From Tubiluchus corallicola (lineage: Eukaryota > Animalia > Priapulida), in the NCBI GenBank assembly GCA_030141605.1, contig JAQGDQ010000345.1, positions 124,001 to 188,000 on the forward strand: a stretch of DNA of 64,000 nucleotides, written 5' to 3'. The translations under genes and the position numbers were made by a program. The notes under the pieces are model-generated. The model saw only the letters and a program-made list of their open reading frames with translations. It was not told where the DNA came from and searched no databases. How positions within the stretch are numbered: the stretch's first letter is position 1; the number at the start of each line of letters is the position of its first letter. This document shows, piece after piece, positions 587 through 53,975 of the stretch.

Positions 587-3500
587 GTACAAGTACTTAC
601 GCCGTATATTTCACTTTCGGCAAATGGACTTTGAATTTGCCTTGTGGCAAATGCTGTATTTGATGATAGCACCACAAAAGGTTTATAGGAATTTTCACTA
701 CAGAAAATGTAAGAGTTGGATTTTTTCAAGCTTGGACTAGCGGAAATACAATCTTAGGATAAACAGTTAAACTGACCCAGTCATTTGATTTGATGTACCG
801 GTAGTTTGCAAGCAACAATGCTGTAGGGTATTTAAAAACATGTGCTCGTGATTGTAATGGCAAATCTATAGTGCTAGCAGGATTAGGTATCCTCATCTCA
901 TGTTTCTGTAACTATCAGTGCAGGGCCAGGTAGCAACAAGTTTACTGGAATAAGAACTGGTAGATTTACTATTTGAATAATAAAATACTATTCAATTATT
1001 CTATATGCACTTTATTAGTCGTCGTTTTGGCACGAAAGAGCTTGGTTAAGGAATGTTATAGGATTATTGATTTTTCAGGGATTTTATATATATTTGTATG
1101 TTTCAGCTTTGTATTTAAACTTTTTTTCACTCTGTGGAAATATGTCCCTAAGCATTGTGCCAGTCCGGGGTGTTGTGAAAGTTTGCAATCTAGAGTATAT
1201 TCACCAAGTTTTTGTTGAATTTGCTTCATCAGTGTAATGATGCATAGTAGCTGGTCAAAGCGGAGAGAGCTGTGCTGCCTCTAAAGTCTGAAATAATCAT
1301 AACTTTCTTGTCACTGTTTTGGATGCACACAAATTATTTTCCCTGTCGAAGTGTTTGGCATAATAATCAAAAACCATTCTTTCTCAATACTGCAGCTCTA
1401 AAGTAGTTTCTGTTAGTTCGTGGCTTCACACTATACGATTCAACCAAAAACTACAATATGTGAACACAACAGCACAAACATTTTAAAAAAGTAATTCTCA
1501 CATGCTAGAAATAAATTAAGTTATCAATATTTTTGTTCAAACAGTCTTATGTAATTGTTTTTGTGCAACTGTTTTTTGTGGAAGTGTTTTTATGTCTTAT
1601 GTAACTGTCATTTTTTTGCAATTCTTGATTAGACAATTGATAATTACCATTAAAATGCTAATTAATTTCAGGTACAAAGGATCAGTATGCACGTGATGAT
1701 CCAGCTTTTCTAGTCTTACTTAGTCTTTTTCTTGTAGGTAAGTGCTAACATGTATTTTTTAAAGTGCAGTTTGCCACGAATGGCATTGTCAAATTTGCGT
1801 GCTTGTCATTTTCAGCTAAAACATTTTTGAGAAAAATGTGCTATGCAATGTTCAATGTTGTTGTTTTATTTCAGGATCATCCATAATTTTTGCAGTTGTT
1901 ATGGGCCTCAGTTTTGTTGGTTTTCTCAAGTTTGTCTTGTGGGTTGTGTTTGTAGATACTATTGGTGTTGGACTGCTGATTGCAACATTGTTCTGGTAAG
2001 CATCTTTACCACATTTATGTTAGATTTTTTATACTAGCTGGCATTACGGTTGCTTAACAAGATCACAAAACAGTCAGTCGGTGTCATCTTGTATTAAATT
2101 TATTAAAAAATGGAAGCATTAATGGATAGAATTATTAAAGAAAATGTAAAGTGTTTTAACAATGCAGACACAACTGTTGTGCCATCTAGTGTCTGTTACC
2201 AGGTCGTTTTTTACAGGGCAATTAGTAATAGATATTTAATTAAACATACAAATGCTGGACCAGATGTAGAATTGGGCTATTGCTTTGACGTTCATCTCAA
2301 TGCGTTTTTTCCACTGCTTATGATTCTGCACGTATTTCAAGCTATATTTTTACGTAAGTTTTTATCCTCTCTTTTTGAGTATTGTTTTGCTTTGGTTTGT
2401 TTTTGTGTTGATGCAGTTGGCTATTATTATATGCTATTACATTGTATTATATATAAGTGTAGTACATTTGCTGGAGCCTTTATTCCGATTTAATGTAATG
2501 CATCGCACTAATGTAATTGTGCGATGATTATATTTATAATAATTGCTTTAGTTATCATTAAACAGTTGTGCACATGCATCATAGGTCATGTTTAATGCCT
2601 TATATTTAGTTTTTTTAAATTTGCATATTATTTGTAAAAAAACTGTACATGTAAGTGGAATTTTTGCTCTTGTGCAAAGAAAATGACAGGAATATGCACA
2701 AACGTTTCTTAATAGAGGATGTCTTTTTTCAACAGTTACATATAATAATAAAATTACTGGAGACTACCTGATTCGGTTGCATTCATTACATTACAGGTTT
2801 ATTATTTTTGCAAAAATTGCTGAAACTTGTATTTTTTCTTCTTTCTTTTATGAAAGAATTGTGATAGAAAGAATTGAAAAATTTATCTTTTCTGAAACAC
2901 TCAGAAACAGAAAAAAACTGTTTGATATAGCATGTTACACTTACTTTCAGGTAAATTATTAAAATCAGAATTCTGCTCTCTTCAGTTTTTCTGTCATTTT
3001 TGTTAAATATTATTATTAAAATTGGTTGTATGTCAGAAATGATGAGAAATCTAATTGATATTTCTAGGTTCTCATTCCAACATGTGTGAACTAAACCTAA
3101 TGATACTCTTTGTTTGTTCTTTGTATTTTAGATTTCATATTATTAAACTGGTTCACCTCTAAACTATTTGGTAACACTTTATGGCTGATATCAATTGGTT
3201 ACTATATTTATATTACATTTTTAGGATACAGCGGTAAGTGAACAAAAACAATATAATATTTATAGAGATAAGATTTGCTTAACGTTTATCTATCACTTTT
3301 ACTAGATGAAGTATAAGCGATTTATAGCCTTATTTTCTGTTAATGTTTCTATCGTTATTAGTAGGTATCCAAACAAATCATTCTAATTTAACTTTCCATT
3401 GAAAAACAAATGGGCTAATGAAAACCAAGATAAAAATTAAGATTTTTGGCGATGAAAATGAGATATTGTTTTACATAAGCAGTTAAGTTCTGTGGCCATT

Positions 3501-4404
3501 CATTGATCTATTTAAAAATAGAAACAGTTTTAAAATAACTGCCAATACTGGACGTTTGATTATTATGGTACTTTTAGGAAGGCTGCTATGCTACTCATGT
3601 ATAACTTAAACAATAGTCAGGGACATAGCATTGTTCTAAAGTTAGGGGGAGCAAACACATAAAAAAGCGCTATGACACATGTAGCAATTATATGTTTGTC
3701 TATTCCACAACAGACAGTATCAGTGTGTGACAAGAATATATTATAATAATTAGATTTGGGGCAACTTGGTTCATTCAGTCAGTCAACTTTGTCAAATGAG
3801 TTGCATAAATGCACCCTTATTTAAAAAACATGGCAGGCAGGTTGGTTCAAATCATGTAATGACTTGAGAAAATTCTTCCAAGGCCGTGCCATTAAAAAGA
3901 TTGGAATTTTTTCGCACAAGTGAACTAAAAAGTTGAAAAAATTGTTGAATAGGCCCCAATTATGAAAAATGTGCTACAGGGAGCGGTTTCGGCACTGACA
4001 ATAGTTAGAAAATGTGTAGTGTAGCTGTAATTTCCACTATTCATGCAATACATGACAAATATGCTTATAATATGTTGGTAAAATCTGGTATTTTTTGTGC
4101 AAATGCATTTATACTTGCTTTAAATACTTTAATTACAGCATAATACTGCAATCTGCTTTCATGCAGGAGCATAGTCAGGTCTTTCGAGCATTGCCAGTTT
4201 AGATATTTATGTGGAACAAGCAACTGCTCAGTACTCTTAATTAATAAAATGATTATTATATTTTCAGCTCTACCACAGTTGCATAAAACTCAGATCTTAT
4301 TATATCCGATGATTGTTCTGTTTATCGCCTACATTGTCACAATTGCTGCTGGTTGGAACACCACAAACGCACTGATATACTTCTATGAATACAGGGTGGG
4401 CTAA
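587..4404 (+). CDS. UNC50: UNC-50 homolog (Golgi/inner nuclear membrane multipass protein), 5'-incomplete, 6 coding exons
   Basis: Exons 587-708, 1672-1737, 1875-1995, 2217-2353, 3132-3233, 4268-4404; all GT-AG and phase-consistent. Translation: YKYLRRIFHFRQMDFEFALWQMLYL...VYRNFHYRKCTKDQYARDDPAFLVLL...DVELGYCFDVHLNAFFPLL...GNTLWLISIGYYIYITFLGYSALP...FYEYRVG*. These are the UNC-50 family hallmark motifs. The exon with the start codon was not identified. Confidence 0.96.
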
Positions 4405-9727: not shown

Positions 9728-12700
9728 TCATGAAAAGTGGTTAGCTAGTTCGAATAAAGCTGTTTCACAAGTACCATACTGTCGTTTTAGCTGTTTATGC
9801 TGACAAAGAATTTGCATCATTTTTTCTATGACACTCTCCCGCTCTGCCTCAAGTTCTCTGCATTCATTTTGAGCTATAAGAATGTTCCTCAAAAGGGTTT
9901 CATTGTATGAGGTCTGAAATTCACAATATGCGCTGTCGTCCATATCAATATTCGAGTGTAATACTGCCCCTGCACCTATAAAGAAACTCATTATACAGCA
10001 AATCTGCATAATCCTCAACAAACTAATTTAATGCATTCACCAGACAAATGTTTAAAGGAGTTACTGATGCCATCAACATACCTGTCATCAATGCGGTGTC
10101 CTCATTTTCACTTACTTTTACACTAAAAAGTAAATTAATGAATATTATTTGACTAAATAATATTTCTGTGATAGATTAGTTCTACAAGCACATCAGAACA
10201 CGTAAATTCACCAGAAAAAGAGCTTTCTTCATAAAGGTACAAGTGAGTGAAGCTAAGAATGGCACAGTAGTTGGTGAAACGGTTCTATTTTTGCTCTGGG
10301 GATTTGACTCGCCATGCCGATTCTGGCTGCTCGCCTCATACAGGGAGGATGTATTCACATCATAATGTGGCTAAGTCAGGCGCCGGTCTAGCCATGACCA
10401 TTCAGTCACCTGTAGTCACCATATAAACACACACCATAGACAGTGTTTACACTACGGTTTAATATGCAATGATTACAGAAAATTATCTTCAAATTTTAAT
10501 TTTTTTACACAAACAAGGCGAATGCCGACTCAAGATAAAACTACTGTGGGAAAATGATAAATATATGAAGAGAAATAACATTCTTATAACTAATTTACAT
10601 TCATTATAAATTTTATTCACAAATACAAAGAAGGACTTTGCAGGCGAACGAAAGTATCTTCTGAAACACTTGCATCAATTGAGGTTTTATATTTTAGGAA
10701 ACAATTTGCCTGAAAGTAATGAATTCCACAGATAAGAAGCCAAAGGAAAGAAACTGGAAAAATAGGCAGCTGTTCCACATATAATAGTATCCAGAGTATG
10801 TCTAGAGAAGTAGCAAAAAACTGAGTATTACAAACAAACTTAAGAGGATTTGGGAATCGAACACATCCTAAGGAGATCTTCAACAGAAGTACCAATAAAA
10901 GAGTCGTAATGTAGTAAGTGACCCTCCTTTGAGAAAGTGCAACCTAAGCTGTGATTGCAGTACTCCGTATAAGGTCGTGTGTTTAATTTGTAAAGAGTAT
11001 TACCTTTGGGAATTAAAGGACAAGAAAACACTTTACTTGCATAAAGATAAAATAAGTTTGTCTAGAAATACCTACATACTGCCTTATTGGGCACAGAACT
11101 TGTATTAGCAGTAATGCTGTATAAAACATCAAATTTAAATTCTCGCAATAATTGTTAGGTGGTGCCATTTAACGGTAGGTGGTTTGAAACCAGTTCAGAT
11201 CACATTTCGTAAAATTTGAACGAAATCAGATGATTCGAAAGCGCACCCTTAACTAACTAAACAAAAGTATAAATTACTGTATCTTGTGAAAATGATTAAA
11301 AATACATTTGGTTGAAAATACACCCATAAAATTTTTGGTGAATCAGTGGCATTTTACTATGTGGCCTGAAGATTTTAAATTACTAAGAATTTTCTTTTCT
11401 AGTTAGGTAAGTCTCTCAAGCAGGTAAGTAATATAACCTTGTGCAGAAAATGTTTTGGAATATGCATTAAAATTGCCTTTTCTTCCCTTTTAATAAGTAT
11501 GAGTACGATGCAGGTATACCACTTCTTTTCAACACGTTCTTAGCTACAGCCGTTTTTCTCTATCTAAGATCAAGATGATGTAAGTGAATATATGACTGAC
11601 CAGAATGAATTGCTAGAAATTGCATATTTATAGCGTCTAGTCTAACATTACGATGATGAGAAAGGATGCAAGTTTTACCGTAATGCCTACAAGATCCAGG
11701 TCACACAACTGCTTAGCTGGTCAAAAAAATCTCAAGTACTTTTGAACCTATCTCTACAATTAGCATTTATTCCTAAAACATAATCAGTTTAATTAAAGCA
11801 TTACATACAGTAAAATTTCTGATATCTAATAATTAAAAAATGCAATACCTTAAAGGTACAGACGACAGAATATCGGTGTAATCAGTGTTATTTTCAAATT
11901 CTTCCGTGCCATCATTTTTAGTTACTGAAACGTTTGGTTCAGCGCAGTGAGGAAAACTCTTTCTTGCTGTTTGTTTCTTTGATTTGATTCTCCGTTGCCC
12001 GACGTGCATATTATTTTGTTCAGTCTTTACGCTTGAAGGCGTAAAAAAGGAACATGCATTGTCAGTGCTCCTGAAATTGACTAATTTAGCACCCACATGC
12101 ACAGTGTTGTTTTGCACGTTATTTAGTAAGTGTGCATCAGAGAATCCAACGTTACGCAAGTTATCAATGCTTAATAATTGTGTTGACGGTGATGCATCAG
12201 TGACAAAAGTAGACACCAAACAACTTTTAGACGAAAAAACATTTACTATTGCTTTTGTCCCTTCAGTCAAACTGTGGCCCCTAGAAATGCAAAAATATAG
12301 TCAGCTATGAAATTTTTAAAAAATAATAACACATCGAATGGGCTTTATAAAGGTCTACAAACAACAAAAAACGTCTACTAAAATTTTTTTCTTCATTTGG
12401 TACAAACTTAAATTGCACAAACAATTAATTTTCATGCATTCAAATTTAAAGCATTTTTATGCAATCTCACCACCAAAACAGAAAATAATTTGAACACTCT
12501 AGTTTTTAATCACTAAAACTTTTCACAGTATTTTGCTTATATTTAGCATGCAGCATGTATAACTGAGTACTCACCTTAATTCCAATGTTAATTATAACGA
12601 GAATTTATATATAAGCAGTAACAAGAACAAACTTAATTTTGTGAAATAAGAAAAAGAATTATAATGAATCCCATACTTGTAATTTTCCCGCTCCGTTTCC

Positions 12701-14236
12701 AATGGTTCTTGTTTTACTTTAGGTAACGTCTGTGTGTAGTTACTAGTAGCGGGTGAATTCGACTTTTCTATTTCATCAGCAGATTGCACATCGTTTAATA
12801 ACAAACATGCCTCTTGAACTGCTTCTGATACTGGTTGAATTTCTGCATCAATGTTCTTTTGCTTTTCACGACCAAGTAGCTCAGTTTGTATACACCCAGT
12901 GCCCGATTCCTTAGTATTTGCAATACCATTCTGATATACAAGCTCTAATGTAGGTGGTTCCTCCCTTGGGAAAATTTTTGCTTGTGGAATCTCATTATGA
13001 GTGAGTGCAGAAAGTCTCCTTGATGCACGGGTAGGAGTCCTGAATGTTCTGATGTTTAACAAAAGTGTAAATTAGTGAAATGTAATGTGAATGATTTTAT
13101 TTAACAAGACAATAACGGTAGTAAAATGTCATGACAAAACATAAAATCTGCTTGTAATAAATTGAAGAATACAAAAGCAGCAGAAAAGTAGCAGTCTTAC
13201 AATTTCTACATTTGACCATATGACCACATCTTGCATAAATCAATATTTCTTAGGATTTCTTATATAAGCCCTAACAGTTTCTAGATAATTTTTTCAAATA
13301 CTTCAAAAAAAACATGCTGGCTCTCTTGAATTTTAGCTTTCAAAGACATTTCCAAATATTAATATCAACAATGTTGGATTTAATTTCCATCAGTGTTTGC
13401 TCATACTTGCCATAATGTCAGATTAAGAATAAATTCAAAACTTAGCAAACTACAACAGACACAGTGCACACGATCGAAAATGTCTGCAACAAATTGTCTG
13501 AAACAGATCGTTGCTTGTATGTGTTCTCGATAAATGCTCTTTTAAATACCGACATGTCACACACAGATTTTTTATTAAACGTGTTTATTTGCAGTCTCAG
13601 GCAAACTTATTCTGCTCCCGTGTGCGGATTCGATACAAATATAATTTGCATCTGACAAAACCTGATCAGACAAATAAAAAGGGAATGTAATCACTTTCTC
13701 ACATGTTATCTAATAATTGTTTGCTAGATTACCTAAAACACAGATTGCTTCATTTAAACTAAGTAAATGAGTAAGTTTATTAAAGCAACACATTACAGCT
13801 AAAAACTGATTTACGGTGTGTACGTACAGATGGTAAAAATAATTTAAAAATTTAAAAGACTACACTAAGTTATTTAGCAAATTTTGTCTGAGATGATTCG
13901 TGTCAGACAGTTTATTGCAGACGAATTTTTTGCCAGGTACGATTTGTATAAGCATATAATTCAAATGAAATTCTGTTTTTCATCAAAGCAAGGACAAAAT
14001 CAATATTTCTATAAATGTCATGATTACCTTTCATTAATCTCTGGCTTGGATCGCTTCCCAGCTAAAAGTCTGTAATCAATACAAGAAGCTCTAAGCGACT
14101 TCCGAACTCTTCCATTTCTCATCTTGTTATTTCCATAATCGTTGTGGAAGATCATTGGAGCAGAATCTGGTAAAGAAATGTTTTCTTCGAAATTTTTGCT
14201 GGTTAACACGGTTGTAGCATGTACATCACAATCCAT
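9728..14236 (-). CDS. Uncharacterised ~433-aa, probably nuclear and largely disordered protein with H3-tail-like KQTARKS motif, SUMO motifs and C-terminal coiled coil
   Basis: Exons 14236-14028, 13048-12677, 12280-11849, 10122-10082, 9975-9728; GT-AG, phases 2/2/2/1, total 1302 nt = 433 aa + TGA. The ATG is in ACCATGG context with an in-frame stop upstream. Acceptor at 14282-83; candidate 5'UTR exon donor GTGAGT at ~18412-18417. No family recognised. Confidence 0.75.
13470..13945. mobile_element. MITE-like element in intron of the uncharacterised gene
   Basis: AAAATGTCTGCAACAAATTGTCTGAAACAGATC (~13477-13510) is inverted relative to GATTCGTGTCAGACAGTTTATTGCAGACGAATTTT (~13895-13929). Confidence 0.5.
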
Positions 14237-16749
14237 GGTTCAGTTTCAGGCAAGGAAAAATTCTATTCAGTGTTTGACCTCCTAGAAAAAAAAAATAAAA
14301 CAAAAATTGCATTTTAATAATTCACCAAATCAAAACACAAGATGCCATTTTCCAGCAGCACACTTTTAGCTAATAATGCCTAACATGCAGTAGGGCCTAA
14401 TTACTTTACAAGCTAGTGAAAGATTCATATTGCAACAGATCAACGTAATTCACAATGTTCGTATAAAATCTGCATTTTTTAATACTACAGTTATTAGCTA
14501 TGCTGCCATTTTAAAATGTACACTCTCCTCAGATTACCTAAACTGTCATATAGTCTCCTTTGAAAACAAAGCGGCATTAAAAAGATTGAATTTGGGGGAA
14601 TAGATAGAGTCATGATATGTGCTTAACAGTGAAAGTTAAGCAGCATAGGACTTGTTTAGTTAATGGATTGTTGACTGATACGAAAATTGCTTCTAGGCAG
14701 TATCATGAGCTGGTCCCAAAAACTGCTCTCTTTGAAAAAGATCAATTTGATTCACATCTGAGAGTGACTATGTCATGTCTTCCGATTCACTGTCACACCA
14801 TGAAGCATTTTTCTTAATAATTAGCTAGGTTGCAAGCATGTCTTAATCATCTACATTAACCAGGTCTTGCTGCATAGTGGGTTACGAATGCTATGGGGGC
14901 GGTCAGCCCCAAGAACACTTTTGATCTATTGTAATGTTATTCAATCAATGATGCAATGCCTAAAACAATTATTTTCCCTGACGTCACTGCTTAGTACTGG
15001 AAGTTTAACACAGTGTAATATTGTTTAGTATGTTTGTACTGTTTTATGAGTAAGATACTGACACCCAAAGTTCAGTACACATTTCTGAGTGATGTAATGT
15101 ACAGGTTGATACATAATTTTTTGTTGGCCGTTTGGGTTACAGAAACGACGAATAACAATATGGAACGATGTGTTACATGAAAAGGTTACTGAACAATAGA
15201 GAATCCATCATGCAGTCAAAGTTCAGCATGAAAGGCCTGTAATCAGAAAACTAAAAGATTAAACGTTTTCAAATTGAACTGAATAACTTAGAAATTCACC
15301 GGACAACAACTCCGCCAAACATATTAGAGCTATACGAAAGACAGCAGATGGAATGCTAGGATGATGAAAAAAATAAATTAGTATTCTATAGATAAGCTTC
15401 TGAGATATCTGCATAGATGTATGCGGGTGTTGAGTTCCTTGAGTCACTACTTCAATCACACCCTTAAGAATGCAGGCTGTCCGACACATATGAGGCTTCC
15501 ACACCAAAGTTTCTGGGCGTGATAGATTCATTATTGTTTCAGCAGGACTTTGATATAATAGATTGAACTGCACTGTTACTCACAGTTTTCATACCCCTCT
15601 AGCAAAAGCTTATGAAGCACCTTGTATGTTCAAATTCATGAATTCTGTTTTATCAAACTTAGTTATTCTGGGTTTTGTTGTTTTTTGAAGTGTGCAATAT
15701 ATATATATATATACTTCTGCATATGCTGCTAGTGTTTTATTATTTTATCTACTTAACCCCAGATATGAGTAAATCACAGTTGAGAAGTCTTGCCATATTA
15801 GCACAGCAAATGGCAGATGAACTACCATACATTTTACCAATGTCATTAAAGGTTTTGCTTGAATAGAAAAGTATGAAAAATAGCTTGTGGAACATTATAG
15901 CTATTTTTTTCACTTAAGAATAAGCATAAGTTAACAAATTTACTTGTATACATGTACATAATTTCCAGTTTTTGATATGAGTTTAACAAAAAAAAGCATG
16001 TTTCATGCATATGTATATTTTACCAGGCATGGGGCATCAAACTCAAGGAGTACAATAGGCAGCACAAGCTCAGTTTAAACAAGTACAGTTTAATTAGACC
16101 ATACTGCTAAACATTGGTCATCACATAAAACTCTGATAAACTGATTAGTTTGTAGACACAAATAGCAAATGATATCACATCTGCTGCAAGAGTGCATATT
16201 GTCAGTAATAATAGTAAATGCAAGTTAATACACTGGAATAATATAATTGCATAAGTGACATAAAACTATTTTAGCTTTGGGTATCGTGCTAACAAAATCG
16301 TTTGAAAAGCAAAATCTTAACATGCATTATGCAGGGCTTCACCTTATCATGTTAAGGTTTATAAGTTTATTGTAATATACAATATACAAAAGCAAACGAA
16401 AATATTATTTTTACAAGCACAATAAAAATAAAGTACAGCTTGTAAAGCAAGTGTTAAAAAACATCGAGTCTACAACGATATTTTTATGACGTGAAGGTGT
16501 TGAAGTCCACTGACTTATTCACCCCAATCACCCATTTATGTAGCAATAAATGGCCTACATACTTAACTTTTGTTAGCTGACTTATAAAATACAAATTAAG
16601 ACCTATTAAGGACAATTAAAATCTTAATTAAAAACAGTAAAGATTATGATAATAAAGTGACTTAAATCACTTCAAGCCATTAAACTTACTTCTATAATAT
16701 ATATATTATAATAGCAAGTAATATAGTCTCATAGTCATAATTAGTGCCC

Positions 16750-18148
16750 TACGAGAATTTATGATCTGAGCAACACAGCAGTTGTTTTGGGAATTCAAAA
16801 AGTGCATCGATAAGCCTAAAATAGAAGAAGCTATAGCAATGAGAGATAACCAAGGTGAGATCCAATAGGACCCAGAAAAAATTAAGACGATTAAAATGAA
16901 ATTGTCCGACAGGGAACAGTGCTGGGACCATTATTATGTTGTGATGCAATAAACCGGATTAATGAGATGTGACGACAGAGAGTGTAATGGGCAGGAATAT
17001 ACATGTGGGTATGTTATTATTTATTGATGATATTGTGGGAATAGGACAAGAAACCATAATCAAACAGACGATTAAAAACTGTCAAGAAATTGAAAGAACC
17101 AAAAGATTATCATTCAATATACAAAAAACACAATATATGAGAACAAACATGACACGAAAGAATAGGATTCCAGTATTATGTGAGTCACTAAGGAACGGAG
17201 AGGTTAAGGAAGCAAAGGAATACCAATATTTGGGAGATTGGTTTAATACAATAGGAAGTGAGCTGAAACTGGGAGATTGCTCAATAGGGGTTAAACTAAT
17301 GCTATACGAGCTTCTTTCAGTGAGTGCAGTGCTAAATAGTTCTGAAACATGGTCAAATTTGATAACCACTGATTGGGAGAAATTAGAAAAAATTCAAGCA
17401 AATGCTTTAAAACCTTATTTAATTTTAGCAAATCAACACCATACTGGGGATTAGTAATGTTCTATCGGAAATTACTGATTAGTAAACCAAAGAGATTAGC
17501 ATCAGAGGCACTCGAAATGCAAATAAACAGTGCACATGAAAAGTCATGGTATAATGAAGTAGTTGAGGCTGCAGAAAAACATACCATAGATGCTAATAAA
17601 GAAAGGGTGAAGGTCTTGAAAAAGTCTGAATGGAAAAAAGAAATAAAGAATAAGAATGAATGCTTTATAAGGAATGAATGTGCAGAAAAATGCAGGAGCA
17701 GCACTAAATTAAGATTTTTAAAACATACTAAGTGGAAACGACAAAATTACATAGCCACAAGCCAGAAGAGGTTAAAGATATATTGAAAATAAGACTGAAT
17801 ATGATTAAAGTTAAAGGAAACTACAAGAATGAGTTTAAGGAACAGTTATTATGACCAGTGTGTGGGGAAGATGATGATACTACTGAACATGTGCTTAAAT
17901 GTGGCAGATATGCAGAATGGAAGAAAAATTTGAACCCGGATATATTAATGAACAGTGAAAAAGGAGCATTGCTAAAAATCAGAAATCTAGTGAACGAATG
18001 CATGGAATACAGGATAAAGACAAATAAAGACATTAAAGTGGGAAAAGACAACTAAAAGATCAGCGTTACAGAAAAATAGACTTTGTGCCCTATAAAGGTG
18101 CCCGCCTCTGATAGGTGGAGAGAGTCGAGTATCGCAAGCGCAAGCGCA
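16750..18148 (+). mobile_element. Decayed 5'-truncated non-LTR retrotransposon (Proto2-like), copy 1
   Basis: RT motifs KCID (cf. KCFD), IVRQGTVLGPLL (from 16901), LLFIDDIV, EYQYLGDW, SSETWSNL and STPYWGL. C-terminal zinc knuckle (C)PVCGEDDDTTEHVLKC with TGA in place of the first Cys. Frameshifts and deletions present; hexamer tail ATCGCAAGCGCAAGCGCAA. Clade assignment is tentative. Confidence 0.85.
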
Positions 18149-19240
18149 AAAAACACGTTCATTTGTATAGGCTACACAGTATTGCCCATCACTGCTGTGA
18201 GTCAGTGCTGTATTTCGGGAAATAATATTTCAAAAATTGAATAGCAAGACGACAAACAGCAATTAAATAATTAAAATTAACAACGAAGTTACGACGAAAA
18301 GTACAATGACTACGACATAGACATATAAAACAAACAATACTATAAAAATCAATAAACACATACAATTTCTAGTCGCTTTTGTAAAAACTAACTGTAGACG
18401 GCCTCAAACATACTCACATTTATTGAGAGAGTACCAAAACAATAACATTACAATGTAATTTTTTACGAGCCTGACTGTCTGCAATTTGACGTCGTGAAGA
18501 GGCATCACTGGAAATCATTATTGAGTTTTTCTTTTTTGCCAGTGTAATCATTGTTGCACACTTCATGGATTTTAGTGACTCACACCGAACCACAAAGGTT
18601 ATGCCGGATGAAAATCAAATTGAATGATCTAGCCTGACCTGTCACAGAAAGACATGTACGCAGAAAATTATTAATTTTTAATTTTTAACAAGGACTAATA
18701 GCAAATCAATAATAGCAAAATAATAAAATTAGTTTTTAATTTTAATCCTATAATTGCAAATTTGTTATTAAAATTTTGACTTGATATTGCAAATTTTTAG
18801 CACATATAGCTGTGCTCATTACTGATGTGTCTTATGCGTAATGCTTTTTTGCGATAATAAGAATATAAAATAGATGAAAAATGCAAAATAAATAGAGCCT
18901 CTGAAATAACTTGCTATTGCAATAACACAGAAATGCAAATTTCAAAAGCTGAAATGCAGGTTCAAAATTTCATGGAGGATTTCTATTAAACAATAAAGCT
19001 AATAATGCGATTCTTACTGTTGATGGCGATGATGATGACGATGGTGACAAAGATGGTAATGATGATGATGATGATAATCTGACAATCAATCGTTTTCTGC
19101 GAATCAATAGTAGCATGTTTTAATTTTGACAGTATGAATTATGAAGACGCCACAAGCACAACAAAAGATGTAAATCGAACCAAAACCTTGGTTATCATTA
19201 ACAGTGAAAGATTATTATCTACTATTATATTAATATTCTT

Positions 19241-19276
<36 letters not shown>

Positions 19277-19734
19277 ATACGAGGCTACAGCCCGGACGAG
19301 GGCACCATTTGCGGCGATCTATATATCAAACGAAAGGTCTCGATCTAGTGTCGTGCCATTGATGGTTTATTTTTCGAATCGGGCCCACCGGGAGGAACGG
19401 GAGGCGAAAAACCTCCAAAAATGGCCATTTTTCGGCCGTTTTTTGCAAAAGTTATACGGCTGAGATGTAGAGAACGGGAACGGGCCGAGGGGGGTGCTGG
19501 GTATGGATAGATAGCCCGTTCAGCGGTGGGTGTAGTAGGCCTATTTAGAATTCCCGAGAGGGCCACGGCGCCCCACAACGGGCGTTTTCCCGGACCCAAC
19601 TCGCGATTTTTTCGAAATTTTGAAAAATGTTTGGAATGGTTTTGTTGTAATGCTGTGCTGTTGGTGCTTGTGCTATAGGTGTTGTCATCGTTGCCACCAT
19701 CATCATCATCATCATCAACATCATGATCACCACG

Positions 19735-20986
19735 TGAGGTGGTGGATTTGATGTGGTGTGGTGGTGGTGTGCTTTGTGTGTTGTGCTATGGATGGTGTGG
19801 TGGGGTGATAGGGTGTGTGGGGTGTAGTGTGGGTAGTGTGGTATGGAGTGGGTGGCGTGGTGTGTGGGTGTTGTAGTGCAGTGTGGTGTTATGGTGTGGT
19901 GCAGTGTGGTGTGATGTGGTGGAGTATTATGGTGTGGGTGGTGTGGTGTGTGGGTGGTGCGGTGTGGTGTGGTGTGGTGCAGTGGTATGGTGTGGTGCAG
20001 TGTGGTGTGATGTGGTGGAGTCGTATGGTGTGGTTGGTGTGGTGTGGTATGTGGGTCGTGCGGTGTGCTGCAGTGGTATGTTGTGGTGCGGTGTGGTGTG
20101 ATGTGGTGGAGTGGTATGGTGTGGGTGGTGTGGTGTGTAGTGGGTGGGTGGTGTGGTGCAGTGTGGTGTTATGGTGCCGTGCTGTGCGGTGTGATGTGGT
20201 GGAGTATTATGGTGTGGGTGGTGTGGTGTGGTGTGTGGGTGGTGTGGTGCAGTGGTATGGTGTGGTGCAGTGTGGTGTGATGTGGTGGAGTCGTATGGTG
20301 TGGGTGGTGTGGTGTGTGGGTGGTGCGGTGTGCTGCAGCGGTATGGTGTGGTGCGGTGTGGTGTGTAGGTGGGTGGGTGGTGTGGTGCAGTGTGGTGTTA
20401 TGGTGTGGTGCTGTGTGGTGTGGTGTTATGGTGTGGTGCTGTGCGGTGTGATGTGGTGGAGTATTATGGTGTGGGTGGTGTGGTGTGTTGGTGGTGTGGT
20501 GCAGTGGTATGGTGTGGTGCAGTGTGGTGTGATGTGGTGGAGTCGTATGGTGTGGGTGGTGTGGTGTGTGGGTGGTGCGGTGTGCTGCAGCGGTATGGTG
20601 TGGTGCAGTGTGGTGTGTAGGTGGGTGGGTGGTGTGGTACAGTGTGGTGTTATGGTGTGGTGCTGTGTGGTGTGGTGCAGTGTGGTGTTATGGTGTGGTG
20701 CTGTGCGGTGTGATGTGGTGGAGTATTATGGTGTGGGTGGTGTGGTGTGTGGGTGGTGTGGTGCAGTGGTATGGTGTGGTGCAGTGTGGTGTGATGTGGT
20801 GGAGTGGTATGGTGTGGGTGGTGTGGTGTGTAGGTGGTATGGTGTGGTGTGGGTGGTGTGGTGTGTAGGTGGGTGGGTGGTGTGGTGCAGTGTGGTGTTA
20901 TGGTGTGGTGCTGTGTGGTGTGATGTGGTGGAGTGGTATGGTGTGGTGCAGTGTGGTGTGATGAGGTGGAGTGGTGTGGTGTGGGT
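19735..20986 (+). repeat. GT-rich (GGTGT/GTG) degenerate micro/minisatellite with ~260-280-bp higher-order unit
   Basis: Marker GAGTATTATGG recurs at ~19922, 20202, 20459 and 20721, followed by the same ordered sub-blocks. Confidence 0.95.
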
Positions 20987-21032
20987 TTTGTGTTGATTTG
21001 TGCACAAAATTCTTTTTGTGGGGTTTGGCTAG

Positions 21033-21214
<182 letters not shown>

Positions 21215-22429
21215 AGCCTTGAAATGGTTATTTTAATATAAATCCCTGCTGTGAGTTGTTTAGTGCCAATAACACCTGTTTTTTTTTATCATAAATGCGC
21301 CTGCATGTACTTCTTACCGTTAAACATACACACATTAGATGCGAAATGTTACAATTGTATTGAAAGGTTGCCTTCAAAATAGTAACTTGGTAATTGTACA
21401 GTTAATATAGCAGCTGCATTCGCCAATGCAGTGCAGCCACTACATTAATTTGCATCATCACATTCCCTGCAGCAAACAACACACACCACATGTATGTATA
21501 GGTTATGCAGACATGGTTAACAAACTAACGGACAAAATATAATAAACTATTTCTCTCTTATTGTCAGTATAGTGTTGCTCTCCACATAATCTTGCCAATT
21601 CATTATCATTGTCATCATCATTATCAGAGGCATAAACATCATCATTGTCATTGTAATTATCTTCATTAATAATGTGATCATCATCATCATCTTCACCACC
21701 TCATCATTATCATCGTGTAGTTAGAGCAATTCATGAAAGACTATTTGGAAGTTCACTTTTTGCTAATGCTTTACTGGACCGTTTATATTCTAGTTTTACA
21801 AGTTTTGCAACGTGTATTATCATATAAAAGCTATGATATTTAATTTCCCTTCACAATAGTAATACAATTCTCTTAACAATTATTATTGTAAATATAGTGG
21901 CGCTAAAAAGGGCGACAGGAAGAAGTTTCGTTCATTCAGCATAATTGCTTTATATAGTATGTTCTAATTATAAATGAGTGATATTTAGATTTTCCATTTC
22001 ATCGTAATTAAATTGTGTAATGTGTGCTATCATTTTATTACTAACAGATAAATGAAGCAAATTCTAGTAATTTTTATTTGAATCACAACTTTCTGTAAGA
22101 GCAGTTAGTTTTATTACGCGGACATTATTTTTGCAACACGTAGACTATTTATTACGTTACTTTTGATAAAAGCTTTATTCAATTCTCCAAAGCATGTATA
22201 CTGGGAGAAGTAGTACCAAAAACTGTAATATAGAGCATGCAGCCTAGAACAGTGGGTCTTGCTAATTGGCATCTTTGACGATCCCTTGACGGTGCTGCCA
22301 CCGGGCGGACGTGGTGGCAGTGCAACGTTCCAGAAAAGAAGTCCCATATTAAAAAACAACGGGGTCAGACCAAAGTGGTCAGACTGTGATTTTGTCTGAA
22401 GCTTTAGGCTTGATGACACGAGTAAAAGG

Positions 22430-28479: not shown

Positions 28480-31400
28480 TCACGACTCTAAACCAATAAA
28501 TGTTCCACTGCTCTCAGTTTCACGGATGGAAGGCTCCTCTTCATTTGTCTCTCTCTCCAACTCAAGGCATGTCTGCAACCCTGAGCAGTAATGTAACATC
28601 ATAAGGGCTAATGCCTGGATCTTCTCATCCGATTTAGAAATGGCATTCTCGAAGCTTTCTTGTCGTTTGACAGAGCTCACCGTTTTTTGAGCTTTCACTA
28701 ACTCGTTCCGGTGTTCCGTTTCTTCATCAATGTTCACCTGCAGCTTCGATATCTTGAAAATAAAAAAAATTGCACAGAAACTATTTTTGCAGAAAAAATT
28801 TAGAAGAGAAGTAGGTTTATTAATAGTGTACCTTACTGTACTATATATACACATATGCATATATAGTAAGCTATGTATAACTCAAGCTGGTATAACTCGA
28901 ATTCTTCTGTATCTCGAACAGATCTCATGGAAGGGATTTTCCCTTCCATTTTCCCTTTAGCAAACATCGTGTAACTTGAATTATCGCGTAACTCAAACCA
29001 AATGCTATTAGAGGTGAACCAGTAATTTCATTTTTACATTTTTGTTTGATATTAGGTTACTAGTATATTGTCGAACGTTGATGAGTGACTCAATCTTGTT
29101 TTCTTACAGACATAGTCTAACTTGTACTTTCACATAACTTGAACAAGTTTTCCAGTTTCGACTTACATATAGTTTACTGTATATATATATATATATATAT
29201 ATATTACGTCACACGCGAACTCAATAGCACACTAAGCAATAAAATGTCGCATGTTGAACATAGTCATATTAACACATCTTATGTTTGTACCAACGATGCA
29301 CACTAGCTAGTAGAACTAGGTAAATACATTTTAAAAAAGCTACTGCATATTATTGTAACACTGTTTTTTTATCAAGCTATATAAGCAATATGTCAGTAAT
29401 GAAAATCGTCGGTGCTGATATTGCTGGCTAACAATAACTGATAAGGTGGAGTATGAAAAGTGAAATTAATTTTTTCGGTTATGGGTACCACGTGCCCATC
29501 CTGATCTATGCCTATTCTATTTTGGTTTTTTCTATTGATCATAATTAATTCTGGGTGTATAATGTGGTTTTATACAAATGTAAATATATATAGTTTATAC
29601 GAGCCAACAAATAAACTAAAATGTGAGGTGCATAATTTGTGAACCTAGGAATCCTCTTTTCACAGTTTTTAATATTTCATTCATACATCAAACGAGGGTC
29701 TTCAACAAAAATTTCTCATTGGTGTCTATTTTTTCAAACTGGATCAATCCAGAGAAACTGAGAGCAAAATACCCATGTTCAGGTGTTTCTTTGCTCTTTT
29801 TCGCAAAAAATAAACTTCTTAGTTTGAAAGAATAGAAATATGACAGGGGTTAAGCTAGTAATGATTCGAAAATCAGTCGACAGCAAATGTTATAGGTCTA
29901 CTTTTCCAAAACATGCCCATCCAGTTATTTCACAATTTTGCCCAAATTCTTAGTACAGTGGAACTTCGACTTACGAAAACCCTATTATACGAAAAATTCA
30001 GAATACGAATCGGGCTTCGCAGAAATTTCTGTCCCATTCAACGAAGAAATATTCAAGATACGAAAATCAAAAGTGCCGCCCGACAGGGATCCTCCCAGAA
30101 TGCATTTTGCAGCATCACGTGAACGCTTTGTTGTGCTCTTATCTCACGTGAACGGATTCAATAACCATGGGTCCGAAAAAAGTAAGTGCCAGTGGTAATG
30201 ATAAGAATAAAATGATGATGTCGTCGATGGAAGCAAAGCTTAAAACTATAGCTAATATGAAAGAGGCATGCATTTAAGTGCTATTGCAAGGGAGTATGAA
30301 CGAAACCCTTCGACGATCGGTCATTAACGAACATATTTCTTTTGGGTGGGTACAATATCTTCACTTTATACGACTGTTTGGGGGGGGGGATAGAACCAAT
30401 TACGCCATTTATAGGGTAAATCTTGTCTCATAATACGAAAATTCTAAGATACACAAGCCCCTCTGGAACGAATTAATTTCGTATCTTGAGGTATCACTGT
30501 ATAAAAAACATTGAAGTGTACGTTACGAGGTCTCAAACTCAGTTCCTTGTTCCGTAGATGAGAGAGAATTTATGAACATTTAGAACCAAATTCCATTTTG
30601 GGGACTTTGCTATGTGAATTACAGGATGCCCAGCCATTGTTATTACATTGTCAATTATAGTTTACCCACCTTATCGTTCAGCTTTTCTTTTCTCTCTTTT
30701 AGTGGTTCTTTACAGTAGAGTTCTTTTCCCATTTCTTTAGCGGCCATGGCAAGGTATTCGCTGCTGGGATCCGTAGCTTGGACTGTCATGAGCCTCTTAA
30801 TCACCTGATCTACCTCTTCTTCTGTGCTGTTTTCACGACTTAAAGTTGGCATATGTGAAGTCAAGCTGTGCTGTAATCAGCAAAATCATGGTGCAGTAGT
30901 TAGTTGGAAAAAGTTCAAGATTCGTTTATTCAATGAACTGTGAACATAACACAGATTTAGCTAATCATTGCTGTAGTATATTACACAGAACACTCTCATA
31001 ACATTTACAGGTATATGAATAACGGTTGTGCAAATTATTACAGTTTAGAGAAGTAAGATTGACTCAATTTTTTCTGATAGAGACATTTACTGCAAATTAA
31101 CAGAGGTCTGCTTGCAAAGCTAAAAACACCTAATAAACAAATTAATTTTCTTGTTGTTGAACTAACAAATTTATAGCATGGCAAACTGTCAAACTTTTAT
31201 TACAATTTTATTACTCTCACACATATTATATTATATAAAATATGTATATATATTATATATATACATCATAATAATTATTGCTATATACTTATATAATTAT
31301 AATTATAATTAATAATTTATAATTACGTAATGATGAATTATATTTGGCTAACTCAGTCACTTTTAGCTACTAAACTACATAGCGTCTTTTGTGTGAAAAT

Positions 31401-34400
31401 CATCCCTTAATATTTTCTACCCTTAACACAAGTAAAAGCGGTAAATCTTCTTCCAAATGTCTACAAAAGAGGTTGATTTAAAGGAAATGTTCACCTTTAA
31501 TGCATGCCATAATCACTTTCAAGCCCTAACATCGAACGAAGCCAACTAGAAGCTGAAACACTGAAATAATGCAAAAGTGAATAATAGATTTTGCTAGAAT
31601 ATGTTAATTATTGTTGTTTAGTTTTGCTTGTGTGCTGTTAATTTACCTTTCGAGTCACACCAGGACTTGACTGTGGGGAAGGCGGTAAACTTTTTGACAC
31701 TTGACTTCCTTGAGGTGGGGCAAGGAGCACTGGCTCTTGAGAAACAGTCCTGTAAGCAAAGGAGAAACATTGCCAAACATGCTACCCAGCAAGAAAAAAT
31801 GTAAATGCCACCACAATTACCCCCTTGCAATATATCCAACAATGCAGTTATAACCCATAACACTCTCAGAACAAACTACAACATTCAAACAAAATAAAAC
31901 CCCACGGGTCTTACAAATAAGACAGACAGCCAATTCCATTTTCCAGTACACTTCTCTTTGGAACCAATAAATGTCATGCTGTTTGGTACTATTTTTATTT
32001 CGCCATTTTAACGTTTAAAAGCTTTTTTGTTTTGTTTGCTTATTTTAAGTTCTTTTGCGATTACAATCTTAACTTTCTTTTTTTGGGTTTTTCTGCTTAT
32101 TTTCATTATGTATTAAGTCACAATGTTTGTTCAATTTGTGTCTGTATATCTGCAAAATTTTTGTTTGTTTAGCTATGTATATTTATTTTTCTTAATTTTA
32201 AATTCCTGAAAGTACTAATCAGGACTTTGTTTCAAACGAGCTTTGCTCAATCAAGTTATCCTGAATAGATATCTTTTTTTTTCTTATTTTGATAAGTTTG
32301 ACAACTGTCTGTTTATAGTTATTTGTGGTTCCTTTCATTAGTGCCAGTACTATTTGCACATAACTGCTTACTAAAATGCTGTATTGTTTCATTCTTGTCA
32401 TTATGGCCTTAGTAATCCACCATTTTCATGCTTATAAACACTGTAACAATCGAACCTACCAGAAAGTACAATATCACGTTGATGGTAATATGTAATCTGC
32501 TAAAAAAATCAAGATTCATGCTAAACCAGTCTCCAGACTTTCAAGACGATTTAGCATCACTATTCTCTGAAGCCTACAGGCTTGCACAGTGTCAGTAGAA
32601 ATTGTCATTGTTTTTAGGAAAATAGAAACAAAAATAGAAATTTTAGCTTCAGCGACTAAGCATTTTCAGTTGCCCTATCAGAAACTAAACATAAACAAGC
32701 ACTAACATTGTGCAGCTAAATTGGCTTTACTCCGAAATAATACTTAACAAAATGCTGCTGTTCATACGGCTTTCACCAAATGAAAATTTGCAAGTCTCAT
32801 TATGCAAATTAAACTCAAATTCACTTTTTGGTCGAACAAAAAATTTGAATAGAATAAATACCTCATCTCAAACTGCACAAGTGAGTAATTTTATGAAACC
32901 AAATAACACTAAAATTAGAATATTATAGCTTTCAGTCACGTTTCACACTTTAATACAAAAATAAAACCCATTAAGGCATTGGTAGTATGAAAGACAAAAA
33001 TAAACATCTTACTTCTGAGAGCCTAAGCTGTGAGTCCTGTGATGTTCAACAGGAGTCACGGGAGGTGACGAGCTTTCAGCGCTTGACGACTCGGCACCAT
33101 GCTCCAATTCCGATCTAAGCTGTGATGCTCGACCAATGACCGTGTCTGATTTAGATACAGATGGACGCTTTATACCCATGCGTCTTCAGAAAACAAAATT
33201 AAAACATTCATTATTAATGCTAATTAACACCTGTAGAACAACACGGCTGAAAATTCAACTGGCATTTTCAAAATTCTACTTTCATTTCTGATAATTCTAT
33301 TGTGTTTGTTGGCAAAAATGGCTACAAAGACAAACAAATAATAGAAAAAATTTGCTAAAGAATATAATATGTGCAGACATGTTCAACGTATATACGATTT
33401 ATTTCAAACTATTTTATAAAGCACATTCATCGGGTTAGCTATAAAACACATTCATCAGGTTAGTTACATAAAATAAATAACAAAAAAACAGTCCATTAGT
33501 AATTTAAAAAGTAGTAGTTTTTACATAAATAAAAAGTGCCATTAAGCCAAATACATTATGCCATATCGACTTTGTTTTTACGTTACAGGATCACAAGTTA
33601 TTCGCAACATATATAAATATCATTTAACTGCTGACTGACTAAAAAAGAAAATTTTTTTCTGTTTAAGTCGTCTAAATTTTAAGACATTTTGAACAAATGA
33701 GAGTTGTGCCTTGAATAATAATGAAGTTTGATTTGAAAATTTGAAAATTAAGTTTTGAAACAACAGAGTGTCACAAAATACACAAATACATTTTAAGATT
33801 ATTCATTCATATTATGTGTGTTAAGTTTTCAAATATGTAGCCTCTGAAAGATGAAGGTACGAAATTATAAAGACAATAATGAATCAAGCAGTAAAAATAC
33901 CCCAAGCAATGAGTTTGAGCTTCGCATCTTGCAAGGCATTTTCTGTGGCAAATCATATCACAAACTTGGCATTGGAATGCCACCTTGAGCCAAATCTGCA
34001 ACATCAATGTGGTGAAAACTTATTTTGTTATTGGTATAGTTAACTTCAACATTGAATTGTAAAACCACTTGGTTAACAATGTGTCCTCTATCTTCATACT
34101 CAGTAGTTTTCCATGCATAGAAACAAATGGTACCAACCAAGCAAGCAGTGCTGCTGTATTAATTAATGAAAGTATAGCAAGTCCTCGTTTTACAATGGTT
34201 CTAATGCATTCCAGCAAAATATTAAATGAAGCAATATAGGAATTTTCTTTCCATATAGAAGACAATGTAAAAGCATAGAAAAGCCTCCAAGACAAGAAAT
34301 AAATTCATAATACTTAGCTTGCAAAAACTGAGGTTTTTATGAGTTTTAAGTCTTACATTTATAAAATATTTGCTCACTAACAGACAGAATAACTACTTAC

Positions 34401-52019: not shown

Positions 52020-52334
52020 AACTGAAAACTTCAGCGAGCAGTTCCTGAATTACTTTTTCAAGTTTCTGAACATATTTTCTCTCCGATGTCCCTCCAAAGG
52101 CTCCAATTTCACCAACTGCAAATTATACTTATATAAAAATGCATCTATTAGTATTACTTTTTTAGTTATTACATAGTTTGAAGTTTGCACAGCAAGAAAA
52201 AATGGAAAATAAGCTAAGAAATGCAAAATTACAAACAGACTGATTGATTTGGAAATTTATTATACAACATTACTGAAACATTCACTTACAAAGATTAGTT
52301 GAAACACGATTCATTTCATCGTTAAACAATGAAA

Positions 52335-53975
52335 CAACTCCAGATAGTTACCATCCACGTATTTTAAATGAATGTAGAACTGTGCTTTTTAAGCCTATAT
52401 ACACCTTACTGGATAGGTCTTTTGCTGATTGTCAGTTACCTGGACAATGGAAGGTGGCACAGGTTACTCCCATTCATAAAAAAGGGGACAAGTCAGATCC
52501 ATCGATCTACAGGCCAGTTAGCTTACTAAATACAATTAATAAGGTGACAGAAAAAATCATGCGGAAACATATAATGAACCATCTGATAAGATACAACATT
52601 ATTTGTGAAGAACAACATGGGTTTGTTAAGGGTAGAACAACGGTTACCCAACTGTTACAATGTTACGATGCATGGTTTGAGTTAAAAGATGCTAATAAGC
52701 CTTTTGATATAATACTACTGGACCTGAAAAAGGCATTTGATGTTGTACCTCATCACTTTCTGTTTGCAAAACTTAAAAATTGTGGTATAACTGGTTCAGT
52801 TTTACAGTGGATAGTAAACTTCTTAGAAAATAGAAGTCAATGTACGTGTGTTGATGGTTACAAATCGACTGAGTCCTTGATTACTAGTGGTGTACCGCAA
52901 GGTTCGGTATTAGGTCCGTGTTTATTTGTGGTATTTATAAATGACTTGCCTAGTTGTGTGAGTAATTCTCTTTGTCTTTTTGCCGACGACAGCAAAATCT
53001 GGTCTGAATCTGATTCTTTTACCAGCTGTAATGATCTTCAATTGGATCTAGAAGGGCTCTGTGATTGGGCAGTTGAAAATGGTATGCAGTTCCATCCCAA
53101 CAAGTGTAAGGTTGTATCTGTGGGAGCAGGATATGAGTATAAATACAAAATGTATGATGCAAGTGGCATTCCGGCAGAATTTGACTTTAGTGCTTGTGAG
53201 AAAGACCTTGGATTATTACTTGATAATAAACTAAATTTTAAAGATCACATAGCAGAAATCATAAAGAGTGCCAAACGAAACAATGCTTTAATAAGGAGGA
53301 ATTTCAAGTACCTAGATCTGCAAACTTTCAAGCTTCTATATGTGGCACTTGTGCGATCAAAAGTGGAGTATGGAAGTAGTATTTGGAATAGTCCTAGGGC
53401 ATATATAGTGGACCCAGTCGAAACTGTCCAAATGAGAGCTTTCAACATGTTACCGGAACTAATGAACTTGACGTATGAAAGTCAGTTAAAACGAATAGGT
53501 TTAACTACATTAGCTTTTAGACGTTTACGTGGCCAACTAATTGATGTATACAAATATGTATCTGGAGTTTACAGCTGTGATGATTGTCCTGTTAAATTAG
53601 AAGTACATCGTACAGCAAGATCAGGTCCTATTCTTCATAAATCAAGAACTGCACACAAAACTGGTAAATACGACTATTTTTCTTGTACGATGCCAGAAAT
53701 CTGGAATAGATTGCCCTGTGATGTGAGAACAGCAACATCTGTAAATTTATTTAAATCAAAATTAGATAGACACTATGAACATCATCCATTGAAATTTAAT
53801 CACCGTGCTAATTGGAACATGCCTATAACAAGGATGCTGGATTACATATTAAAGTGAGAAAACTTGCCAGTGGAGTCACCTAGGTGTTGATGACAATCTA
53901 TTAAATGTGCAATTTGTCGCAATTACAGTCGAAGAACTATTTGTCTCAAAAGTTATATTATAACTACTGGAGATT

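What the first reader, a model, noticed from the sequence alone, without database searches (positions are those of the whole stretch)
11956..11976. Orphan gene encodes an exact histone H3 tail mimic (KQTARKS = H3 residues 4-10)
Seen: exon 12280-11849 of the unrecognised 433-aa protein reads RRIKSKKQTARKSFPH. KQTARKS is identical to histone H3 K4-Q5-T6-A7-R8-K9-S10, embedded in otherwise non-histone, low-complexity sequence. Established: shorter ARKS/ARKT/TARK mimics in G9a/GLP, ATF7IP and LIG1 are methylated by G9a/GLP and read by HP1, MPP8 or UHRF1, and the Ser is an Aurora B-type site. Inference: this lineage-restricted protein could act as a decoy or adaptor for H3K9 writers and readers, i.e. 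an undescribed chromatin regulator.
Basis: partly seen in the sequence, partly recalled or inferred. Interest (0 to 1): 0.8.

Follow-up and report, generated by a model that had tools for sequence, protein, structure and literature searches.

The report
H3K9-like motif in fast-evolving animal protein
A predicted animal gene with no recognised family encodes a seven-residue exact copy of the histone H3 silencing site (lysine 9), which one diverged relative keeps while nearby residues change, so it likely serves as a methylation-controlled dock for gene-silencing proteins, though a chance match inside a nuclear-import signal remains possible.

Summary
KQTARKS lies at 11976-11956 (minus strand), in frame, as residues 296-302 of a five-exon GT-AG model of 433 aa. 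It equals H3 K4-S10, and likeness stops there; there is no histone fold. Chance is small per gene but not per scan: about 0.04 copies per proteome, about 20 any-frame copies per 250,000 windows. The new evidence is one diverged homologue (run X2, 83% identical here). It keeps 7 of 7 motif residues while 10 of 23 flanking residues change (Fisher p 0.038; 0.09 with exon 1 pooled; longest-run test 0.068). Flanking basic residues are also kept (4 of 4), so a nuclear-import or kinase site is a real rival. The match spans the HP1/MPP8 chromodomain footprint. Its +2 Phe fits published G9a/GLP preferences and breaks SUV39H1 ones. The rest of the protein has two SUMO-type sites and a predicted C-terminal coiled coil. 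Best reading: a likely G9a-written, chromodomain-read methyl/phospho switch on a fast-evolving nuclear adaptor (about 50%). Splicing, methylation and binding are untested; 'orphan' rests on searches with two of five exons. H3K9 mimics are a known kind, and this scan noted others on other DNA, but not this gene.

The parts
11956..11976 (-). KQTARKS, residues 296-302, identical to H3 K4-S10; the K9-equivalent lysine K301 is at 11961-11959
   Evidence: unchanged in the X2 homologue with one synonymous change
11950..11994 (-). Basic patch and motif, residues 290-304; residues 286-300 are the most basic 15-residue block (net +6); candidate nuclear-import signal; residues 295-304 unchanged in X2
   Evidence: the import-signal reading is inference
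14028..14281 (-). First coding exon: 45 nt of leader with an in-frame stop, ATG at 14236, 209 coding nt; holds a basic stretch at residues 41-64
   Evidence: an X2 contig lies on 14122-14275 at 87% identity
12677..13048 (-). Exon 2 (372 nt, frame-preserving if skipped)
11849..12280 (-). Exon 3 (432 nt, frame-preserving if skipped), carries the motif
   Evidence: an X2 contig lies on 11890-12040 at 83% identity without gaps
10082..10122 (-). Exon 4 (41 nt); skipping it shifts the frame
9728..9975 (-). Last coding exon with stop codon
9734..9937 (-). Predicted long helix / coiled coil, residues 365-432
   Evidence: single helix, mean pLDDT 88; 13 of 17 a/d positions hydrophobic in the best of 7 registers
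12706..12717 (-). SUMO-type site VKQE, residues 181-184
   Evidence: pattern scan; consensus recalled; use untested
12019..12030 (-). SUMO-type site VKTE, residues 278-281
   Evidence: pattern scan; consensus recalled; use untested

Best explanation
The window encodes KQTARKS in frame in a predicted 433-aa, fast-evolving protein, and this motif likely works as an H3K9-type switch: a G9a/GLP-type enzyme would methylate K301, an HP1/MPP8-type chromodomain would then bind, and phosphorylation of S302 would release it. Shown: the motif, its frame, the splice signals, and its retention in one homologue. Predicted: a C-terminal coiled coil that would tie the protein to a partner, two SUMO-type sites and a basic import signal, which together would make it a nuclear adaptor for silenced chromatin. 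Untested: expression, location, methylation, binding.
For: Homologue in run X2 over 30 codons: motif 0 of 7 residues changed against 10 of 23 in the flanks, one-sided Fisher p 0.038; pN 0 of 17 sites against 0.216, with similar pS (0.25 and 0.28), so the stretch does mutate. Non-basic motif residues Q, T, A, S 0 of 4 changed against 10 of 19 non-basic flank residues, p 0.08. HP1 binds H3 Gln5-Ser10 (PMC7465937 passage); MPP8 contacts Gln5, Thr6, Ala7, Arg8 and Ser10, and Q5-T6 are what separate K9 from K27 for it (PMC3192050 passages): all are matched. G9a prefers hydrophobic, R, K, hydrophilic, hydrophobic (PMC8541646 passage), which A-R-K-S-F meets. Conservation inside poorly conserved unstructured regions is the argument used for the SETDB1 mimics (bioRxiv 2025.01.21.634156, section 11). 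Exact heptamer expected 0.04 times per proteome by chance.
Against: Only one diverged homologue and 30 codons. With exon 1 pooled as background p is 0.09 by residues and 0.068 by sites; a run of 10 unchanged codons somewhere in the 30 has permutation p 0.068. All 4 flanking K/R residues are also unchanged, and F303 and P304, which differ from H3, are kept too, so the constrained unit is not the H3 copy alone. The contig may have been laid because this stretch is conserved, a selection effect that I could not remove. A scan this large expects about 20 any-frame copies, and prokaryote genomes hold hundreds. The loose G9a motif occurs in 8230 human proteins (PMC10611923 passage), and an ARKS mimic claim for SARS-CoV-2 ORF8 was disputed on localisation and effect (PMC10833455 passages). 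No chromatin domain was found in the 4 of 5 exons scanned with Pfam.
Confidence: 0.5

Rival explanations
1. The stretch is constrained as a nuclear-import signal with an Aurora/PKA-type phosphorylation site (R-K-S-F), and the likeness to H3 is a coincidence favoured by K/R/S/T-rich, A-rich codons.
For: Residues 286-300 are the most basic block of the protein; 7 of 7 K/R residues in the compared stretch are unchanged and the homologue gains one more lysine (I292K); the non-H3 residues F303 and P304 are kept; a similar R-K-S-L occurs at residues 45-48.
Against: Import signals do not need Q-T-A (established knowledge, recalled), yet these are unchanged; Q, T, A, S 0 of 4 against 10 of 19, p 0.08. 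It still needs a 0.04-per-proteome coincidence.
Confidence: 0.25
2. The motif is a chance heptamer in a fast-evolving disordered region with no special constraint; the identical run in X2 is sampling noise plus alignment selection.
For: Longest-run permutation p 0.068 and pooled p 0.09; flanks evolve close to neutrally (pN 0.216, pS 0.284); scan-wide expectation about 20 any-frame copies; about 700 prokaryote matches.
Against: The unchanged run falls on a motif named beforehand (p 0.016-0.038 against the local flanks) and holds 3 synonymous and 0 non-synonymous changes over residues 295-304.
Confidence: 0.15
3. The motif is an H3K9 mimic but acts as a competitive decoy or inhibitor: it would occupy H3K9 writers or readers without recruiting them, F303-P304 making it a poor substrate for SUV39H-type enzymes.
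For: K4-S10 match covers the N-terminal residues that SUV39H1 reads most, while +2 F and +3 P break its stated tolerance (PMC8303541 passages); F and P are kept in X2.
Against: One motif per chain; histones are so abundant that a decoy must be very abundant (argument made in PMC10833455); the target lysine is intact and fits G9a.
Confidence: 0.07
4. The heptamer is a relic of a histone H3 gene fragment or of a divergent H3 variant captured in the exon.
For: Exact seven-residue identity.
Against: Identity stops on both sides of the heptamer in the window and in X2; no histone hit in Pfam or among solved structures at E up to 10; the C-terminal exon folds as one helix, not a histone fold.
Confidence: 0.03

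Closest known systems
ATF7IP/MCAF1 K16 mimic (G9a/GLP-written, MPP8-read; PMC6172828 passages)
   Same: Non-enzymatic protein with one H3K9-like ARK[S/T] site; coiled-coil and SUMO-pathway links in ATF7IP are recalled, not from a call.
   Different: No detectable homology; the site here is internal (residue 301) and matches H3 over seven residues, against the shorter match in the ATF7IP peptide printed in the paper; no fibronectin-III domain (ATF7IP feature recalled; no Pfam hit).
DNA ligase 1 K126 mimic (G9a/GLP-written, UHRF1 tandem Tudor-read; PMC9768651, PMC10464304 passages)
   Same: Internal ARK motif with a basic residue at -5 in a flexible basic region.
   Different: LIG1 has Arg at -5, which gives over 100-fold tighter UHRF1 binding than Lys (9 nM against 1600 nM); this protein has Lys, like H3, and no ligase domains.
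G9a K185/T186 and GLP K205/T206 automethylation switch (PMC9768651 passage)
   Same: Methyl-lysine next to an Aurora-type phospho-acceptor, predicted HP1 docking.
   Different: No SET or ankyrin domain; modification would have to come in trans.
SETDB1 histone-mimic motifs (bioRxiv 2025.01.21.634156 and 2025.10.22.683908)
   Same: Short H3K9-like motifs conserved within poorly conserved unstructured regions.
   Different: Those are self-methylated in an enzyme and tested in cells; here nothing is tested biochemically and the host protein has no known family.

Membership tests
H3K9-like histone-mimic motif (G9a/GLP substrate class) | ARK(S/T) core with Arg at -1 | tested here: met
   A299-R300-K301-S302; rule
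H3K9-like histone-mimic motif (G9a/GLP substrate class) | G9a preference: hydrophobic at -2, hydrophilic at +1, hydrophobic at +2 | tested here: met
   A, S, F read against the PMC8541646 passage; sequence comparison only
H3K9-like histone-mimic motif (G9a/GLP substrate class) | Residues of the chromodomain footprint (H3 Gln5-Ser10) | tested here: met
   6 of 6 identical; footprint
H3K9-like histone-mimic motif (G9a/GLP substrate class) | Conserved above its flanks | tested here: inconclusive
   0 of 7 against 10 of 23, p 0.038; pooled p 0.09; one homologue
H3K9-like histone-mimic motif (G9a/GLP substrate class) | Lies in an unstructured, accessible region | tested here: inconclusive
   no secondary structure and pLDDT under 50 around the motif, but the fold had no alignment
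H3K9-like histone-mimic motif (G9a/GLP substrate class) | Nuclear protein, methylated at the lysine, bound by a reader only when methylated | not testable with these tools
   needs localisation, mass spectrometry and pull-down
SUV39H1/2 substrate | Small residue or Thr at +2; G, K or Q at +3 (RKST motif) | tested here: not met
   F303 and P304 against PMC8303541 passages; human enzymes' rules
High-affinity UHRF1 tandem Tudor ligand (LIG1 type) | Arg at -5 | tested here: not met
   K296 in the window and in X2; rule
Histone H3 or H3 variant | Histone fold | tested here: not met
   no Pfam hit in 4 of 5 exons scanned; no histone among solved-structure hits; last exon is one helix
G9a/GLP, SETDB1, LIG1, ATF7IP orthologue | SET, ligase or fibronectin-III domain (domain lists recalled) | tested here: not met
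   0 Pfam families at E up to 1 for exons 1, 2, 3 and 5; exon 4 (13 residues) not scanned

The most novel reading that the evidence does not exclude
A lineage-restricted, rapidly evolving silencing adaptor that carries a full-footprint H3K9 mimic on a skippable exon, tuned by F-P to be written by G9a/GLP but not SUV39H, and uses SUMO sites and a coiled coil to bring HP1-type readers to targets such as transposons.
Probability: 0.25. Interest if true: 0.65.

Novelty: new member of a known kind. Interest (0 to 1): 0.38.

Why it matters
The tested H3K9 mimics in the papers read sit in conserved enzymes and their cofactors of vertebrates and flies, and one of those papers calls the list limited. 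A seven-residue mimic on a protein of no recognised family would show that animals can recruit new proteins into heterochromatin by evolving a short motif, and it names a candidate silencing factor in a little-studied lineage. The test is a cheap peptide assay. If the motif is only an import signal, the gene is an ordinary fast-evolving nuclear protein.

Tried and rejected
No whole genome is held for this window, so paralogues, G9a and HP1 of this species could not be checked; inside the window the protein matches only its own five exons. No RNA holder listed; X2 is RNA only by guess and no contig joint across an intron was listed, so expression and splicing are neither shown nor excluded. Homologue searches: exon 3 against longer proteins 0 of 308 candidates and against similar lengths 0 of 6; exon 5 against longer proteins 0 of 52; these are weak blanks. 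Exon 5 against 1.84 billion representatives gave 1 hit, a seven-repeat protein matched over 27 residues by summed weak stretches, rejected. ESM Atlas: recognition 1610 and 2005, below the 2300 mark, only unnamed or scattered clusters, rejected. Solved structures: none for exon 3 or the 21-residue motif peptide; designed 'Pizza' repeats for exon 1 arise from summed 4-bit stretches; 4 hits at E near 1 for exon 5; all rejected. Fold search with the low-confidence exon 3 model: 0 of 255 matches at E up to 0.001. Two-copy complex of the C-terminal helix: no answer, score 0.15 under the 0.32 mark, no evidence either way. Earlier findings near this place or like exon 3: none. Literature: eight searches; in the listings I saw no title or abstract describing this protein or a seven-residue K9 mimic in an invertebrate orphan, but only 30 of 105, 19 of 22 and 15 of 117 papers were listed. 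No supplements were read; lists of mimic candidates in those of PMC10611923 could bear on how common long matches are. An antisense open frame at 11951-12310 was not pursued; the minus-strand frame has the splice signals.

Full report
Observation. The 21 bases at 11976-11956 on the minus strand read KQTARKS. They lie in a 432-nt exon, 12280-11849, with a pyrimidine-rich AG acceptor (14 of 18 pyrimidines, the highest of 13 AG sites nearby) and a GT donor. The ATG at 14236 follows an in-frame stop in the same exon (sequence). Exons are 38-40% G+C, introns 26-34%. H3 residues 1-10 are printed as ARTKQTARKS in PMC5415848 (passages), so the match is K4-S10. It ends there on both sides.

Chance. The window has one match to the degenerate pattern and 0 of 100 shuffles have any. 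From the protein's own composition the heptamer is expected 0.04 times per 1e7 residues, against 186 for ARKS, 15 for TARKS and 0.7 for QTARKS. In random DNA of this composition about 20 any-frame copies are expected over 250,000 windows. A scan of prokaryote genomes for a subset of the codon spellings gave 121 stretches in 11 of 64 parts, about 700 in 596 Gb by the tool's estimate; the frame is open across the 140 bases in 35 of those 121. So the match is unusual for one proteome but cannot by itself be told from chance in a scan this size.

Relatives. No genome was held and protein searches with exons 3 and 5 found no credible homologue (details under Tried and rejected); exons 1, 2, 4 and the whole protein were not searched in the large collections. 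Two runs could be laid. X1 is close: 5 differences in 312 bases over exon 3, none in the motif (3 non-synonymous, 2 synonymous). X2 is diverged: one contig lies on 11890-12040 with 26 differences in 151 bases and no gaps, another on 14122-14275 with 20 in 154; these were the only 2 X2 contigs laid on 11780-14330 and both fall on predicted exons. The tool lists differences only away from contig ends, so I compared the 30 interior codons (residues 285-314; 17 of the 26 differences) and 28 codons of exon 1 (10 of the 20). In the 30 codons the proposed frame has no stop (2 of 6 frames are stop-free). The motif has 0 of 7 residues changed and one synonymous change; the flanks have 10 of 23 changed (one-sided Fisher p 0.038). 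By sites, pN is 0 of 17 in the motif and 0.216 in the flanks, pS 0.25 and 0.28. Residues 295-304 carry three synonymous and no non-synonymous changes. Against this: exon 1 changes 6 of 28 residues, and pooling it gives p 0.09; a run of 10 unchanged codons anywhere in the 30 has permutation p 0.068; all 4 flanking K/R residues are unchanged too; and for non-basic residues alone the contrast is 0 of 4 against 10 of 19, p 0.08. The contig may also have been laid because of this conserved stretch. Whether X2 is an orthologue from a related species or a paralogue is not known; it shares 3 of X1's 5 exon 3 alleles, which suits an outgroup (inference).

Anatomy. Pfam found nothing in exons 1, 2, 3 and 5. 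The last exon folds as one helix over residues 365-432, mean pLDDT 88, with 13 of 17 hydrophobic a/d positions in the best register: a predicted coiled coil. Exon 3 folds with pLDDT 35 and no structure around the motif, which is uninformative without an alignment. The motif closes the most basic block of the chain (residues 286-300, net +6). Two SUMO-type sites (residues 181 and 278) and a second basic R-K-S-L stretch at 45-48 are present; there is no canonical PxVxL or PIP box (these consensus patterns are recalled). Exons 2 and 3 can each be skipped in frame, so a motif-less isoform is possible.

Mechanism. The match covers what readers and writers of H3K9 touch. HP1 binds Gln5-Ser10 (PMC7465937, one passage), and MPP8 contacts Gln5, Thr6, Ala7, Arg8 and Ser10 and rejects the K27 sequence because of positions 5-6 (PMC3192050, passages). 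G9a wants hydrophobic-R-K-hydrophilic-hydrophobic (PMC8541646, passages), met by A-R-K-S-F. SUV39H1 tolerates only small residues or Thr at +2 and prefers G, K, Q at +3 (PMC8303541, passages), which F-P fails. UHRF1 binds LIG1 tightly because of Arg at -5 (PMC10464304, passages); here it is Lys. In G9a and GLP the residue after the mimic lysine is an Aurora B site that blocks HP1 (PMC9768651, passages). I therefore commit to a G9a/GLP-written, chromodomain-read switch on a nuclear adaptor, at about 50%. These rules come from human, mouse and fly proteins. The main rival, at about 25%, is an import signal with a basophilic kinase site whose H3 likeness is coincidental; pure chance takes about 15%, a decoy about 7%, a histone relic about 3%.

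Comparison and novelty. H3K9 mimics are known in G9a, GLP, LIG1, ATF7IP, WIZ and SETDB1 (PMC6172828 passages; bioRxiv 2025.10.22.683908 passages; bioRxiv 2025.01.21.634156 passages and section 11). This protein is not a member of any of those families, nor a histone. It would work like ATF7IP's site. Caution comes from the looseness of the motif class (8230 human proteins, PMC10611923 passages) and from the disputed ORF8 mimic (PMC10833455 passages). Earlier notes of this scan report H3-tail mimics in other genomes and suggest a priapulid or other non-arthropod invertebrate for this genome; these are unchecked and are not used as support.

Verdict. A real motif in a plausible gene, with weak but pre-specified evidence of constraint. 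Interest 0.38.

Noticed in passing
window 588-4404 (+): UNC-50 gene, convergent with the studied gene; one exon hit Pfam UNC-50 at E 2.7e-14; the other exons were read by eye.
   Followed up: partly
window 28480-48019 (-): Exons at 28480-28881, 39676-40221 and 47699-48019 resemble PDZD8 (recalled; no Pfam hit for these pieces). It lies upstream on the same strand and could anchor a synteny search.
   Followed up: no
window 14045-14116 (-): Basic stretch at residues 41-64 of the studied protein, of the R-K-S-x-R...Y type seen in nucleosome-binding proteins (resemblance recalled, not tested; not covered by the listed X2 differences).
   Followed up: no
window 52277-53857 (+): 526-aa open frame with reverse-transcriptase motifs, LINE-like (family recalled, not scanned).
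   Followed up: no
window 16966-17786 (+) and 55004-55318 (-): Decayed reverse-transcriptase element upstream of the gene (Pfam RVT_1 E 0.009, below cut-off), with a related piece at 55 kb.
   Followed up: partly
window 19545-21285: Long CAC/ACC-rich tandem array followed by an ATA/ATC triplet run; gives several spurious open frames and very high depth in X1.
   Followed up: no
window 18417-18640 (-): Possible upstream non-coding exon ending in a strong GTGAGT donor and holding a short upstream open frame (read by eye).
   Followed up: no
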